Assembly: GCF_045037415.1 (NCBI RefSeq) | Contig: NZ_CP173440.1 | Strand: one strand, 5' to 3' | Origin: Escherichia coli | Lineage (GTDB): Bacteria; Pseudomonadota; Gammaproteobacteria; Enterobacterales; Enterobacteriaceae | Length of the DNA stretch: 64,000 nt | Part shown: piece by piece, positions 51,001 through 60,000 of the stretch | Layout: each line of letters begins with the position of its first letter | How positions within the stretch are numbered: position 1 is the first letter of the stretch | Program-made: the position numbers

Positions 51001-54000
51001 TCTGAGTATTGGCCCCCGTGGAGCTTCGCTGTCAGTGGGAAAGAATGGAACGTTTGCCAACCTGGGCCTTCCCGGAACGGGACTGAGTTACCGCACCCGG
51101 ATTGACAGAACAGCACGGGAAAGAGTGAATACCAGGCATCAGGCAGATCCCGGTCTGAGGTCTGAACTGGAGCTGGTGGTGGAAAAACTGATGTCCACCG
51201 TAACAGCGATAACCAATATCCATGAACTCTCCCCTTCCCCAAAGGGAGGGAATACCTGGGCCACGCTCGAGACACAGTACCTGGCGCTCCGTCAGGGCAG
51301 TTTCACTCTTCCTGCGCCGGTACGACCAAACAAACCTGAATATATACCTCTTCCACCAGAACCTGATGAGCATGCCGGTCGCGGTTTCCTTGGGGGATGG
51401 CTTGAATCTGATGCAGCCCGACAGGAGCGACAGAACGAAAATCTTCGGCGGTGGCAGACGTCCGTCGCTGATATTGAACGTGAAAATGCGTTGCTGAAAC
51501 AGCGTTATGAGAAACAGCGTATAGCGTGGGCTGAGCAGTACGCAGAATGGCAGCATCAGTACCAGGAGCATGAAAAAAATCGCACGGAGTCTGTAGCTTT
51601 AGCGAAAGAGCAATTCCGATCTGACGCCCGCTTCTTTGAACATTGTCTTGAGGAAGTTTTCTCGCAAACAGAATGGCCGCGAGAAACACTGGTGTCGTTT
51701 GAGGTACGGCCTGAAGAATCAACAGTCTGGCTTGATGTTGATTTACCTGAGATTGAGGATATGCCTGATAAAGTGTATAGCGTGAATGCCCGGGGAACTG
51801 ATATCAATGAAAAAGCCATGACACAGAAAGCGGTCCGGGAAAGTTACGCTAAACACGTTCACGGATGCCTGCTGAGATTAGCAGCAATCGTTTTTCAGAC
51901 GCTTCCGTTTGAACAGGCCGTCATTTCAGGCTTCACTCAGCGGGTGAGTAAACGCACTGGATATCTTGAAGATGAGTACATTATCTCCTGGCGGGTACGC
52001 CGCTCTGAAATCGAGCTAATCAACTTCGGGAATCTGCGAGGCGTTGACCCTATTGAAGCATTGGGTGATCGAGGTCTGATCAGGAAAATGAGTTCAACTT
52101 ACATTTTTCAGCCTATAGAACCACTGACCCAGATGGCAGGTACCGACTGAATATGCAATTAAACACCAGACAGGAAAGAGTTTACACCCTGGCTAACATA
52201 CTTGGCTCAGGGAAGCCTGTATCGGCGCAATCCATCACCGCGACGCTGGCCTGTTCTGAGCCGACACTAAGCCGGGCGCTTAAAGAGCTGAGGGAAACTT
52301 ACGCTGCTGAAATTAAATACAGTAAGGCTGGCCACTCCTATCAGATGGTACACTCCGGGTTACTGGATAAGAAAACACTAAAGAGAATGAGTGAGGCACT
52401 GGACCTTAATTCTGATTTAAAAACACATGACCAGGGGGCACGGGTGGTACTGGATAAGGATATAAAAACTTCCGTTTCCCTGTCGATAAGACGCCGTGTT
52501 CTTCGCAAAATTGACAAACTGGCTGCGCTAAGCGGTACATCAAGAAGCGAGGCAGTAGAAAAATTAGTAGAGTTAAAAATTGATGAAATTATCAATGAAA
52601 TGAAGAAATAGCAGAATATTAGTGGGGTGGTTGTTCTCACTCCACTAATCGGCAATCTTTACCATTTTCCCAACAGGTGTTTATTGTATAACTACAGATA
52701 AAAAGCAAATTAATAAAATAAAGATTCTTAATTCATAAATAATCCCTGTGTTTTATTTTATTAGTTTTCTTTTAACTGACCATCGTCGCCGTATTATTAA
52801 ATGCAAAAACGTTAAACCATATTTTATATAGATTATGACCTGTCCAGTTTCCCGGCGACGGGTTATCAATATGGCGAATGCCTACTAATAATGGCGGGGA
52901 TCGTATTGTTGAAATATTGAAAATTTGTAATGTTGCTCAACCAACTCGCGCGTTTGAAACAACGTGAAAATCTCACTTTGTGATTGCTGAACTAACTATA
53001 TGGCTTTTTTTTAGTAGTATGATATGAAGTGTTTATAAAACCATGTTCAGGAAATGAGCTCCCCCATCAACCATTAAGGAAAGTTTAAGATGAGAAGACT
53101 TCCCGTCTATCTGCTTCTCGATACATCAGGTTCAATGCACGGAGAGCCTATAGAGGCAGTTAAAAATGGTGTCCAGACACTACTGACCACCCTGAAGCAG
53201 GATCCTTATGCACTGGAAACTGCATATGTCTCTGTCATTACTTTCGACTCTACTGCTCGTCAGGCCGTACCTCTTACAGATCTCCTCAGTTTCAATCTCC
53301 CCTCTTTTTCGGCAAGCGGAACTACCGCTCTGGGCGAAGCCTTATCCCTGACTGCAAACCGAATTGATGCAGAAGTTCAGAAAACGACAGCGGAGACAAA
53401 AGGCGACTGGCGTCCACTCGTTTTCCTGATGACGGATGGTGGCCCTACGGATGACTGGCGTAAAGGACTTAATGAATTCAAAGCAGCCAAAAAAGGGGTA
53501 GTTGTCGCATGTGCTGCCGGGCATGATGCAGATACGGATGTGCTTAAGGAGATCACCGAGATTGTTCTCCAGCTGGACACTGCCGACAGCTCTTCCATCA
53601 AAGCTTTTTTCAAATGGGTGTCTGCCAGTGTTTCCGTAGGTAGCCAGAAAGTCGATGCCGGTAAAAAAGAAGTTATCGGTCTTGATGATTTGCCTCCACC
53701 GCCGCCAGAAGTAAACGTGGTTTTATAAGCAATTAACTTAAGAGAGGATCCTATGACTGTCAGCTTACGGAAAGGGCAAGGCGTCAGCCTGCGTAAAAAT
53801 GAGTTCGATCTTTCCTCAGTCACGATAGGTCTTGGCTGGGACATCAATGAAGAGAAAAAAGGGTTCCTGGGCGGAATTTTTGGCAAAAAAGAGGAGGAGT
53901 ATGACCTCGATGTTATTGCCTTTCTCTGCAACGCAGCCGGTAAAGTGACTGATCTTGGCAATGTTGAAAATGGTAAGCCGACACTGGTTAACGGCGATAT

Positions 54001-57000: not shown

Positions 57001-60000
57001 AAAGTCTCTGGAAAGTGATTGACCCGCCTTCTGATGCACCATTCTACAAGAAGAGTATCGACCACCAGAGTGTCTGTCGGTCAGGTATTCATATTGCCGG
57101 AGCAAGCCGTCGTGGACGCTCCCATGAACATGTAGGCTCTTTTCGTGACGACGATTATTACCTCAACTTCAGTGATGTATCCGGATGGAGTGTATTACTG
57201 GTAGCTGATGGCGCGGGGAGCGCTAAATATTCCCGGGAAGGCTCCCGTATCGTTTCTGAAACTGTTGGTAACTATCTCTTCAACCAGTTCAAGACTGAAA
57301 AAGGTCTTGAGATCAAAAACAGGGTCCTTCGCTGGAACAGTGAGGATCAGCGAGCAGTATGGGAGTTTATGAACCACCACTTCCGACAGGCAGCGGTACT
57401 GGCCGTAAACAATATCAGCAGTGCCGCAATTTTGGCTGAAGATAAAGTAAAGTCATTCTCAACGACTTTACTCGCGACCGTCACTTTTCGCGACGGTGCT
57501 GATCTTTTTGCCGCGTCTTTCTGGTTAGGTGACGGTGCGATAGCTGCATATGGACCTGCTGGCAAAGTCAGAGTGCTTGGGACTCCGGATAGCGGAGAGT
57601 ATGCAGGTCAGACGCGTTTTCTGGATGCCGATGCCGTCAGTGATGCCGGATTCAGTAAACGTATCAGTATCGGTAAGTGGAACGACATATCGCATCTGGT
57701 TCTGATGACGGATGGTGTTTCCGATCCCTGGTTTGAAACGGATAACGGGCTTCAGAATCCACAAAAATGGGACAGGCTGATGGCCGAGCTCTCTCCCCTA
57801 CTCACAGACCCTGAACATGCCTCGGCACAACTGGTGGAGTGGCTTAACTTTTTCTCTCCGGGAAATCACGATGATCGCACAATCATTGTGCTCTGGTGAA
57901 ATTAATGCGATAGCAGGTGGCTATTCATGGCAAATATAATTACATGCAAAACTAAGGATGGAAAAACCATTCAGTATGTCGATGAAGTCATCGGCTCTGG
58001 CTCAATGAAAGACGTTTATTTTTCTCCGGATAAATCATATGTCGTAGCCTTCTACCATAAACCTCAGAATGAACAGGCCCGGGAACGTATCAACATGATC
58101 ACCGGGAGGTACCGGCAGAATATTTTTGAGCAGACTGGTGGAGATTACTGGAAAGGTCTCTTCTGCTGGCCCACTGATGTGGTTGAGCACGCTGATAAGG
58201 TGGGTATTGTTGTACCTGCTTACCAGCAGCATTTCTTCTTCCGATATGGTTCCAAAAACAATGATTTCCTCGGGATCAAAGGACGTGAAAAGGAAGGGAA
58301 ATGGTTTGCCAGCGCGAACAATCAGAATAAATTTCTGGATCCGCGTGAACGTGGCAATACGCTTAACTATCTGAAGGTCTGCATCCTTCTAACGCGTGCA
58401 GTCAGACGAATGCATGCTGCGGGCCTGTGTCATAGTGACCTGAGTTATAAAAATGTGCTGATAGATCCGGAACTAGGCCACGCATGCATTATTGATGTTG
58501 ATGGGCTGGTGGTTCCGGGAAAATTTCCTCCAGACGTGGTTGGTACACCTGATTTTATTGCCCCGGAAGTGGTGAAGACAAGCCATCTCCCCAAAGACGA
58601 TCCCCGCCGCGTATTGCCGAGTATCGCTACCGACCGGCATGCACTTTCGGTACTCATTTACATGTATCTTCTTTTCCGGCATCCGTTACGGGGAGGAAAA
58701 ATTCACGATATCGATGATGAGGTCAGGGATGAGGCGCTTTCCATGGGAGAGCGGGCACTTTTTATCGAACACCCGACTGACAGAAGCAATGCAGTTAAAG
58801 TTAATCAGGTTCTCATCGTTTTCGCTCCCGTGGGCAGATCCTCAGAAAATCCCGTACACCATTATGGGGCCCTACCTGAAACCTCTCTTCGACCGGGCTT
58901 TTATTGATGGGTTGCATGATCCGTCGAAGCGCCCTACAGCCGATGAATGGGAGAGCGCCCTGGTAAAAACCGTCGATCTCATCCAGCCATGCCAGAACAA
59001 GGATTGTGACCAGAAATGGTACGTTTTCAATGGAAAGACGAAACCCGTTTGTCCCTATTGCGGTACACCCTACAAAGGCAAACTCCCCATCCTGAATCTG
59101 TATTCGTCGAGAAAAGCTGGAACTTTCAGGCCAGATGATCACCGGCTTATGGTGTGGAGCGGTCAGTCATTATATGCATGGCACGTCAACCGACTGATTG
59201 CTCCTAACGAACGAACCACCGATGAGCAGAAGAAAAGGGTTGGTTATTTCGTCTTCCATAATGACCAGTGGTGGCTGGTTAACGAGGGGCTTAGCGGGCT
59301 CATATCACTTCCCGATCGGAAAACGGTCGGCATTGGTGAAAAGTTGCTGCTGGAGGATAACACCCAGTTCATCCTGTCTTCAGAGGATGGCGGGCGATTG
59401 GTGGTGGTTCAGCTTTTGAATAATTAGCTATATTACTGGCCATTGATATCATAACGTCAATATGAGCCCACCATTAGGTGGGCCATAATTATCACAGTCG
59501 AAACGCAACATCTCAATACTATCCCTTTGAGCCTGGAAGATGGTTCGGCGGGACAGGTTATCCACAAACATTGAAGAAAGAGTGTCTCACATTCAGTAAG
59601 AGTAACTTTCACAAATCGCCCCACTAGGGAAACACCACAGTCAGGACAGAAGTCCGGAAACGCCTATTTTTTTCATCAGCTAATTATGTAGCCCCTTCTG
59701 TTCTACTCTTTCCCGGAATGTTCCGGTCCGGAACAGTGTCTGCCGGTAATGCGCCAGAAAAAAATGTATCCCTGTATAACCTGGAAGCCCATGTGTTTCA
59801 GGGGAGCCCGCAGAATTCGGAAAAAATCGTACGCTAAGGTTTTCCGGGCATCCGTAAGGGCCGAAACTTCCCGTCTTCCAGTCTGCGGCTCTGCCGCCAG
59901 ACGTAATCGCCGGTTAGGTTGATGTGCTCCCAGCCCAGCGGCGACAGGAATTGCAGCAGCTCGCCGTCCACCGGCTTGCCGGCCTCGACCAACCCCTGGG

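What the first reader, a model, noticed from the sequence alone, without database searches (positions are those of the whole stretch)
53090..59427. terY-terX-terY module followed by a TerY-P-type vWA-PP2C-kinase triad whose kinase is split by a frameshift
Three vWA-domain TerY paralogues (the third with a C-terminal Cys4-type zinc-ribbon-like tail), a TerD-family TerX, a PP2C phosphatase and a Ser/Thr kinase are encoded co-directionally. The vWA-phosphatase-kinase triad corresponds to the TerY-P system reported to have anti-phage activity. Here the kinase frame breaks between about 58780 and 58830: the catalytic motifs lie in one frame and the C-terminal ~200 aa in another. This could inactivate the signalling arm.
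Basis: partly seen in the sequence, partly recalled or inferred. Interest (0 to 1): 0.45.

Follow-up and report, generated by a model that had tools for sequence, protein, structure and literature searches.

The report
Known ter locus; kinase frameshift likely artefact
This is the ordinary, well-known accessory half of the tellurite-resistance (ter) locus of Klebsiella pneumoniae virulence plasmids, and the "split" kinase comes from one extra T inside a GGTCTC methylation site, which is most likely a long-read base-calling error rather than a real mutation.

Summary
The genes are as described: terY, terX, terY, a vWA+TerY_C protein, a PP2C phosphatase and a Ser/Thr kinase, all co-directional (Pfam). 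The window is 99.97-99.99% identical to K. pneumoniae IncFIB/IncHI1B hybrid virulence plasmids.

The kinase frame break is real in the given sequence. It is one extra T at 58810/58811 (GGTCTC to GGTTCTC). That leaves 295 native plus 31 out-of-frame residues and loses 204 aa.

The insertion is absent from all 1,046 plasmids that carry this stretch. Homologues down to 65% identity are single chains of about 500 aa.

Against three independent plasmids the window has only seven private differences in 63.6 kb. Five lie inside GGTCTC/GAGACC sites, which are Eco31I/BsaI-type methylation targets. Two are poly-C length changes. There are no ordinary SNPs. Two other genes are frameshifted the same way, one by the same +T in the same 9-mer. 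This is the signature of methylation-motif consensus errors in a nanopore-type assembly, so the kinase is probably intact.

The triad matches the TerY-P architecture but not the phage-defence TerY-P family: there are no PADLOC hits, while the E. coli G3/10 positive control hits at 1e-108 to 1e-265.

The intact kinase also carries a Zn ribbon and an FHA-fold domain that Pfam does not annotate.

The parts
52153..52611 (+). terW-like small regulator gene, upstream of the module
   Evidence: The identical gene is annotated 'tellurium resistance protein TerW' in pKpvST383L and 'ribbon-helix-helix protein, CopG family' in RefSeq plasmids. It gives a weak PADLOC WYL hit (1.8e-4).
53090..53728 (+). 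terY paralogue 1 (vWA domain, 212 aa)
   Evidence: Pfam VWA 5.9e-14 and VWA_2 3.1e-09. It has the MIDAS-like motif DTSGS.
53753..54394 (+). terX (TerD-family protein, 213 aa)
   Evidence: Pfam TerD 1.1e-51 over residues 1-201.
54395..55033 (+). terY paralogue 2 (vWA domain, 212 aa)
   Evidence: 50% identical to paralogue 1, with a shared PPPPPE C-terminal tail. Annotated as a VWA domain-containing protein in the relatives.
55111..56166 (+). Triad vWA protein: vWA plus TerY_C Cys-rich metal-binding domain. The likely true start is GTG at 55126.
   Evidence: Pfam VWA 2.1e-14 (residues 11-165) and TerY_C 3.5e-52 (residues 222-351). RefSeq CDS L001 6227-7267 corresponds to window 55126-56166.
56166..57899 (+). 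Triad PP2C-family Ser/Thr phosphatase (577 aa). Its 315-aa N-terminal extension has no Pfam match.
   Evidence: Pfam PP2C_2 2.1e-47, residues 316-561.
57927..59427 (+). Triad Ser/Thr kinase gene, 1,501 nt here versus 1,500 nt (499 aa) in the relatives. The intact product is a kinase domain plus a Cys4 Zn ribbon plus an FHA-fold domain.
58808..58814 (+). GGTTCTC: a GGTCTC (Eco31I/BsaI-type) site carrying the extra T (58810/58811) that breaks the kinase frame
   Evidence: Three independent plasmids have GGTCTC here, and 0 of 1,046 plasmids match the window allele.
58639..59427 (+). +1-frame ORF. From about 58812 onward it carries the native C-terminal 204 aa of the kinase.

Best explanation
The region is the accessory arm of the ter stress/tellurite-resistance locus of K. 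pneumoniae IncFIB/IncHI1B virulence plasmids. Its gene order is terW, terY, terX, terY, vWA+TerY_C, PP2C, Ser/Thr kinase. The sequence is essentially identical to that of about 1,000 sequenced plasmids.

The kinase is probably intact in the real DNA. The extra T lies within a GGTCTC site. Most likely it is a systematic consensus error of a long-read (nanopore-type) assembly made from a host that methylates GGTCTC/GAGACC. That the sites are methylated in this host is inferred.

The likely working of the intact module is also inferred. The vWA (MIDAS) TerY proteins bind a metal or ligand. The kinase phosphorylates a partner or itself on Thr, and its FHA-fold domain docks on phospho-Thr. The PP2C resets the switch. 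This is the phosphorylation-dependent switch proposed for TerY-P triads.
For: Identity to known plasmids: the window is 99.97-99.98% identical to pKpvST147B_virulence over 63.6 kb, and the same gene order is annotated there and in two ST383 plasmids.

Single-base cause: one extra T is the only difference in the kinase gene.

Uniqueness of the allele: 0 of 1,046 plasmids carry it; the best match is 98.6%, which is one gap. The frameshift products are absent from about 15 billion proteins, while the intact 499-aa protein is on at least 1,000 contigs.

Conservation: homologues at 65-85% identity in Pectobacterium, Serratia, Shewanella, Chromatiales and Betaproteobacteria are all 499-511 aa with about 100% coverage.

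Artefact signature: against three independent plasmids the window has seven private events. Five are inside GGTCTC/GAGACC: 6159-60, 10121, 24724, 32019 and 58810. Two are poly-C length changes, at 18281 and 19299. There are no ordinary SNPs.
- The reference stretch has 14 such sites and the window keeps 9.
- By my own arithmetic, the chance that 5 of 7 random events hit 84 of 63,640 bases is about 1e-13.
- All five changes involve the T3/C4 positions of GGTCTC.
- The same +T occurs in the same 9-mer GGTCTCATC at 24724 and at 58810.
- Two other conserved genes are frameshifted in the same way: the P-loop NTPase and the cupin gene.

Literature: GGTCTC is methylated on C and GAGACC on A in E. coli strains (PMC12679398, citing Bitinaite 1992). 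Strain-specific methylation-induced nanopore errors are documented in K. pneumoniae (PMC11610573).

Domains.
Against: No reads or assembly metadata are available, so the artefact reading is inferred from the pattern alone. A C-to-T change at a 5mC position (10121) is also what real deamination would produce. Only 5 of 14 GGTCTC sites are affected, so the error is context-dependent rather than universal. No GGTCTC methyltransferase can be shown for the source strain from this window. The mechanism of the intact triad is untested, both here and, as far as I found, in the literature for this ter-linked version.
Confidence: 0.85

Rival explanations
1. The extra T is a genuine, recent loss-of-function mutation in this isolate. 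It truncates the kinase inside its C-lobe and removes the Zn ribbon and FHA-fold domain, so the phosphatase is left unopposed.
For: The sequence as given carries the insertion. Accessory plasmid genes can decay. A truncated product of 295 native residues would lack about 55 residues of the kinase fold plus both C-terminal domains.
Against: The allele is unique among 1,046 plasmids and absent from 15 billion proteins. It sits in an otherwise SNP-free 63.6 kb in which every other private difference is also in a GGTCTC site or a poly-C run. The identical +T occurs in the identical 9-mer in an unrelated gene.
Confidence: 0.1
2. The five GGTCTC-site changes are real. They would reflect site-directed mutagenesis or selection at methylated or restricted sites, for example 5mC deamination, error-prone repair, or escape from an Eco31I-like restriction enzyme.
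For: The differences are extremely enriched at GGTCTC. The change at 10121 is a C-to-T at the expected 5mC position.
Against: Four of the five changes are not simple transitions: +T twice, -C once, and a CT-to-TC swap once. Three of them create frameshifts in conserved genes. Nine other sites remain intact, so restriction escape would not be achieved. Eco31I-type enzymes cut outside the recognition site (my own knowledge), so repair scars would not fall at T3/C4. The co-occurring poly-C length errors point to a sequencing cause.
Confidence: 0.03
3. The kinase is expressed through programmed +1 ribosomal frameshifting, or as two functional polypeptides.
For: The two ORFs overlap (58639-58907), and the second is in the +1 frame.
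Against: No relative has the split. All the listed homologues are single chains of about 500 aa, and 1,046 plasmids lack the extra base. The split falls inside the kinase C-lobe, which is not a domain boundary.
Confidence: 0.01

Closest known systems
ter locus accessory genes (terW, terY, terX and further terY genes; written terY3Y2XY1W in the E. coli pKL53-L literature) of K. pneumoniae pLVPK-like and hybrid IncFIB/IncHI1B virulence plasmids, e.g. pKpvST147B_virulence, pKpvST383L, pFQ61_ST383_NDM-5
   Same: The gene order is identical and nucleotide identity is at least 99.97% over the whole window. The flanks are also the same: the terZABCDE(F) genes, the ATP-grasp/PRTase/StiP/HpcH/DUF4236 genes, the aerobactin iuc-iutA genes, and a downstream TnAs1. 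The terY3Y2XY1W nomenclature is in PMC11003894.
   Different: The only differences are seven window-private discrepancies: five at GGTCTC sites and two in poly-C runs. One of them is the kinase +T.
TerY-P (TerY-phosphorylation) triad as defined by Anantharaman, Iyer and Aravind 2012, summarised in PMC11090510
   Same: A TerY-like vWA protein, a PP2C phosphatase and a Ser/Thr kinase with a C-terminal zinc ribbon, adjacent and co-directional, linked to ter genes.
   Different: Here the kinase has an additional FHA-fold domain after the Zn ribbon. The vWA protein carries TerY_C. The PP2C has a 315-aa N-terminal extension. I could not read the 2012 paper, so I cannot say whether it already noted the FHA domain.
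Phage-defence TerY-P of Gao et al. 2020 (PADLOC models TerY, PP2C, STK_OB); example E. coli G3/10 WP_047399375, WP_045265431, WP_047399378
   Same: A three-gene vWA, PP2C, Ser/Thr kinase architecture. It is reported to act against T7-like phages (PMC7699616).
   Different: No detectable family-level homology. PADLOC models give no hit to the window proteins at E<=10, against 1e-108 to 1e-265 for G3/10. BLASTP E-values between the triads are 0.017-0.44. The defence kinase ends in an OB fold (PMC11090510), while this one ends in a Zn ribbon plus FHA fold. The defence version is stand-alone beside a type I R-M system, while this one is embedded in a ter locus.
FHA-containing checkpoint kinases (Rad53, Chk2) and mycobacterial STPK/FHA partners (GarA, FhaA)
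   Different: There is no sequence-level FHA match (Pfam gives none). The domain order is kinase, Zn ribbon, FHA. Phospho-Thr binding was not tested.

Membership tests
ter-linked TerY-P triad (Anantharaman 2012 sense) | TerY-like vWA protein with a MIDAS motif | tested here: met
   Pfam VWA 2.1e-14 plus TerY_C 3.5e-52. The DxSxS motif DCSES aligns with DTSGS in the paralogues.
ter-linked TerY-P triad (Anantharaman 2012 sense) | Adjacent PP2C-family phosphatase | tested here: met
   Pfam PP2C_2 2.1e-47. The start codon overlaps the stop of the vWA gene at 56166.
ter-linked TerY-P triad (Anantharaman 2012 sense) | Adjacent Ser/Thr kinase fused to a C-terminal zinc ribbon | tested here: met
   Pkinase 8.8e-09. 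The fold matches protein kinases. Cys355, Cys360, Cys375 and Cys378 are invariant in 33 homologues.
ter-linked TerY-P triad (Anantharaman 2012 sense) | Genomic association with ter genes (TerD family and others) | tested here: met
   terX (TerD) lies within the module. The terZABCDE(F) genes lie about 6 kb upstream, as mapped from the relatives.
Phage-defence TerY-P (Gao 2020; PADLOC TerY, PP2C, STK_OB) | Proteins match the family's profile HMMs | tested here: not met
   No hits for the vWA, PP2C or kinase proteins to PDLC02224, PDLC02222 or PDLC02223, even at E<=10. The positive control, E. coli G3/10, hits at 3.5e-173, 5.6e-108 and 9e-265.
Phage-defence TerY-P (Gao 2020; PADLOC TerY, PP2C, STK_OB) | Kinase fused to a C-terminal OB fold | tested here: not met
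   The C-terminal domain here is an FHA fold preceded by a Zn ribbon. The OB-fold statement is from PMC11090510.
Phage-defence TerY-P (Gao 2020; PADLOC TerY, PP2C, STK_OB) | Protection against phage when expressed | not testable with these tools
   This needs plaque assays with the ter-linked triad.
FHA domain (phospho-Thr reader) | 11-stranded beta-sandwich FHA fold | tested here: met
   [not shown]
FHA domain (phospho-Thr reader) | Conserved Arg, Ser, His and Asn residues of the pThr pocket | tested here: inconclusive
   R406, S414, H419 and N452 are invariant in 33 homologues. Their superposition on the canonical pocket was not checked, and Pfam FHA does not match.

The most novel reading that the evidence does not exclude
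The GGTCTC-centred changes, including the kinase +T, are real. Under this reading, DNA at Eco31I-type methylated sites in this host is a mutational hotspot that has knocked out three plasmid genes at once. One of them is the kinase of the ter-linked TerY-P switch, which would leave the PP2C unopposed. A milder version is that only the kinase frameshift is real, giving a natural knock-out of the signalling arm in a clinical plasmid.
Probability: 0.04. Interest if true: 0.55.

Novelty: already known. Interest (0 to 1): 0.1.

Why it matters
The finding has little biological weight. The locus is a textbook component of Klebsiella virulence plasmids, and the one unusual feature is probably an assembly error.

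Its practical value is cautionary. A pseudogene call in a long-read-only assembly should be checked against the strain's methylation motifs before it is read as loss of function. Here the same error class also falsely disrupts a P-loop NTPase and a cupin gene, and changes a residue in iucA.

Two smaller points may be useful. First, the ter-linked triad is not the same protein family as the TerY-P system shown to block phages, so defence annotation should not be transferred. Second, the ter-linked kinase carries an FHA-fold domain. This suggests phospho-Thr-dependent docking within the proposed switch.

Tried and rejected
- NCBIfam gave only weak generic hits (vWA-containing families; lanthionine-synthetase and Kdo kinase domains), all far below their cut-offs, and no ter-specific model.
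- NCBIfam also has no hit for the G3/10 TerY-P vWA and PP2C proteins, so it cannot serve as a membership test for TerY-P.
- A sequence search of PDB found only generic kinase catalytic-loop matches.
- The exact 32-mer spanning the insertion is absent from the GTDB species-representative genomes, so the source record could not be identified.
- The Anantharaman 2012 paper could not be read, by DOI or by PMC id.
- Programmed frameshifting was considered and rejected: no relative shares the junction.
- Restriction-escape selection was considered and rejected: nine sites are left intact and the changes are frameshifting.
- I did not test whether the window itself encodes a GGTCTC methyltransferase. 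The annotations of the syntenic plasmids list none.
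Full report
**Observation**

On the + strand, the ORF list shows seven ORFs: 53090-53728, 53753-54394, 54395-55033, 55111-56166, 56166-57899, 57927-58907 and an overlapping +1-frame ORF at 58639-59427. Pfam assigns them as follows:
- ORF 1: VWA.
- ORF 2: TerD (1.1e-51).
- ORF 4: VWA plus TerY_C (3.5e-52).
- ORF 5: PP2C_2 over residues 316-561 (2.1e-47).
- Repaired kinase: Pkinase (8.8e-09).

The three vWA proteins are paralogues, 50% and 43% identical to the first, and share a DxSxS MIDAS motif.

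**What the DNA is**

The kinase region matches 1,086 plasmid records, of which 1,013 are Klebsiella, and 57 E. coli genomes. The whole window aligns with pKpvST147B_virulence (IncFIB/IncHI1B, conjugative) at 99.97-99.98% identity over 63.6 kb.

The annotations of that plasmid and of two ST383 plasmids show the same context:
- aerobactin iucABCD-iutA;
- terZABCDE(F);
- the ATP-grasp, PRTase, StiP, HpcH and DUF4236 genes;
- terW, then the module in question;
- a TnAs1 transposase immediately downstream.

This is the well-described ter locus. The literature writes its accessory genes as terY3Y2XY1W (PMC11003894).

**The frameshift**

Aligning the window's 1,501-nt kinase region with the 1,500-nt CDS of the relative gives one difference. 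It is an extra T at 58810/58811, which turns GGTCTC into GGTTCTC.
- The window's first frame keeps 295 native residues, adds 31 foreign ones and stops at 58907.
- The remaining 204 native residues are in the +1 frame.
- The intact protein is 499 aa.
- Its exact sequence occurs on at least 1,000 contigs in a cluster of 3,185 members. Neither frameshift product exists among about 15 billion proteins.
- A 71-nt probe across the insertion finds 1,046 plasmids. None is identical; the best match is 98.6%, which is one gap.
- Homologues at 65-85% identity, from Pectobacterium to Chromatiales and Betaproteobacteria, are all 499-511 aa with full coverage.

The gene is therefore not naturally split, and the allele is private to this sequence.

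**Why I think it is an artefact**

I listed every difference between the window and three independently sequenced plasmids. The differences that all references agree on, meaning they are private to the window, number seven.

Five are inside GGTCTC or its complement GAGACC:
- 6159-60, a CT-to-TC swap giving iucA S364P;
- 10121, C to T, synonymous in iucD;
- 24724, +T, a frameshift in a 741-aa P-loop NTPase;
- 32019, loss of the G of GAGACC, a frameshift in a 175-aa cupin protein;
- 58810, +T, in the kinase (for the coding consequences).

The other two are poly-C length changes: C11 versus C12 at 18281, and C5 versus C6 at 19299. There is not a single ordinary substitution.

Several features of the pattern point the same way:
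- The reference stretch holds 14 GGTCTC/GAGACC sites and the window keeps 9.
- By my own arithmetic, the probability that five of seven random events fall in those 84 bases of 63,640 is about 1e-13.
- All five changes touch the third and fourth bases of GGTCTC.
- The +T at 24724 and the +T at 58810 occur in the same 9-mer, GGTCTCATC.

GGTCTC is the Eco31I/BsaI site. In E. coli strains it is methylated on the cytosine, and GAGACC on the adenine (PMC12679398 citing Bitinaite 1992). From my own recollection of Bitinaite 1992, the modified bases are the inner C and the A opposite T3, which is where the discrepancies sit.

Strain-specific methylation-induced consensus errors in nanopore assemblies are documented, including for K. 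pneumoniae (PMC11610573). The reference plasmids show the mirror image. Their own private differences fall at CCWGG (Dcm) sites: 5786, 15495, 20319, 60345 and 61284.

The simplest reading is that the window comes from a long-read assembly of a host that methylates GGTCTC, and that the kinase is intact. I put this at about 0.85. Without reads it remains an inference.

**What the intact module looks like**

An AlphaFold2 model of the 499-aa kinase (pLDDT 75) matches eukaryotic-type protein kinases over about 350 alignment columns. The break at residue 295 would therefore cut the C-lobe, not merely remove a tail.

Four invariant cysteines (355, 360, 375, 378) form the zinc ribbon expected of TerY-P kinases (PMC11090510).

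A plausible mechanism, all inferred, is as follows. The MIDAS-bearing TerY proteins sense a metal or ligand. The kinase phosphorylates Thr on a partner or on itself, and its FHA domain docks on the phospho-site. The PP2C reverses the phosphorylation. This follows the metal-sensing, phosphorylation-dependent switch proposed for TerY-P triads (as summarised in PMC11090510).

**Comparison with the anti-phage TerY-P**

The triad meets the architectural definition of a ter-linked TerY-P triad. It is not a member of the family shown to protect against phage.

I retrieved the TerY-P system of E. coli G3/10 that was cloned for defence assays (bioRxiv 10.1101/2022.08.27.505566 Table S1; locus L007). 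Its three proteins hit PADLOC models TerY, PP2C and STK_OB at 3.5e-173, 5.6e-108 and 9e-265. The window's proteins hit none of these models even at E<=10. BLASTP between corresponding proteins is not significant.

The defence kinase ends in an OB fold (PMC11090510). This one ends in a Zn ribbon plus FHA fold. Anti-phage activity of the ter-linked triad is therefore an open question, not a homology-based inference.

**Verdict**

The locus is already known. The frameshift is most likely a methylation-motif sequencing artefact, and the equation with the phage-defence TerY-P holds only at the level of domain architecture. Interest is low.

Noticed in passing
window 24206-26432 (- strand), extra T at 24724: A 741-aa P-loop NTPase gene, intact in three related plasmids, is frameshifted in the window and truncated at residue 624. 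The cause is the same +T in the same 9-mer GGTCTCATC as in the kinase. This is probably the same artefact class.
   Followed up: yes
window 31808-32334 (+ strand), missing G at 32019: A 175-aa cupin-domain gene is frameshifted, with a stop after 76 aa, by loss of the G in GAGACC, the complement of GGTCTC. It is intact in three relatives.
   Followed up: yes
window 6159-6160 and 10121: There are two further GGTCTC sites changed only in the window. GGTCTC to GGTTCC gives iucA S364P, and GGTCTC to GGTTTC is synonymous in iucD. The aerobactin 'variant' is probably spurious too.
   Followed up: yes
window 18281 and 19299: The poly-C tracts are one base shorter than in three relatives (C11 versus C12, and C5 versus C6). 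These are typical homopolymer length errors.
   Followed up: partly
window 5786, 15495, 20319, 60345, 61284 versus L002, L003, L001: The published reference plasmids each carry private differences at CCWGG (Dcm) sites where the window agrees with the other references. This suggests Dcm-motif errors in those deposited assemblies, including two positions in the TnAs1 transposase and one in the likely vapB region.
   Followed up: partly
[not shown]
   Followed up: yes
window 56166-57110 (PP2C protein residues 1-315): The phosphatase has a 315-aa N-terminal extension with no Pfam match. It consists of an acidic, Pro/Ser-rich, low-complexity stretch followed by a beta-rich segment (about residues 195-300) that by eye resembles an Ig-like domain. 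I did not analyse it further.
   Followed up: no
window 55111 versus 55126: The longest ORF of the vWA+TerY_C gene starts at ATG 55111. RefSeq starts it at GTG 55126, which gives MRRLPV... like the two terY paralogues. The shorter form is probably correct.
   Followed up: partly
window 59834-62800 (- strand) and the GC jump at about 60000: A Tn3-family TnAs1 transposase at 62-67% GC, against about 48% for the ter region, begins about 400 bp after the kinase stop. It marks the boundary between the ter region and an inserted resistance module (mph(A), IS26 or IS6100 in the relatives).
   Followed up: partly
window 52612-53089: An AT-rich (34% GC) 478-bp intergenic region lies between terW and the first terY. 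It is the likely promoter and regulatory region of the module. I did not analyse it.
   Followed up: no
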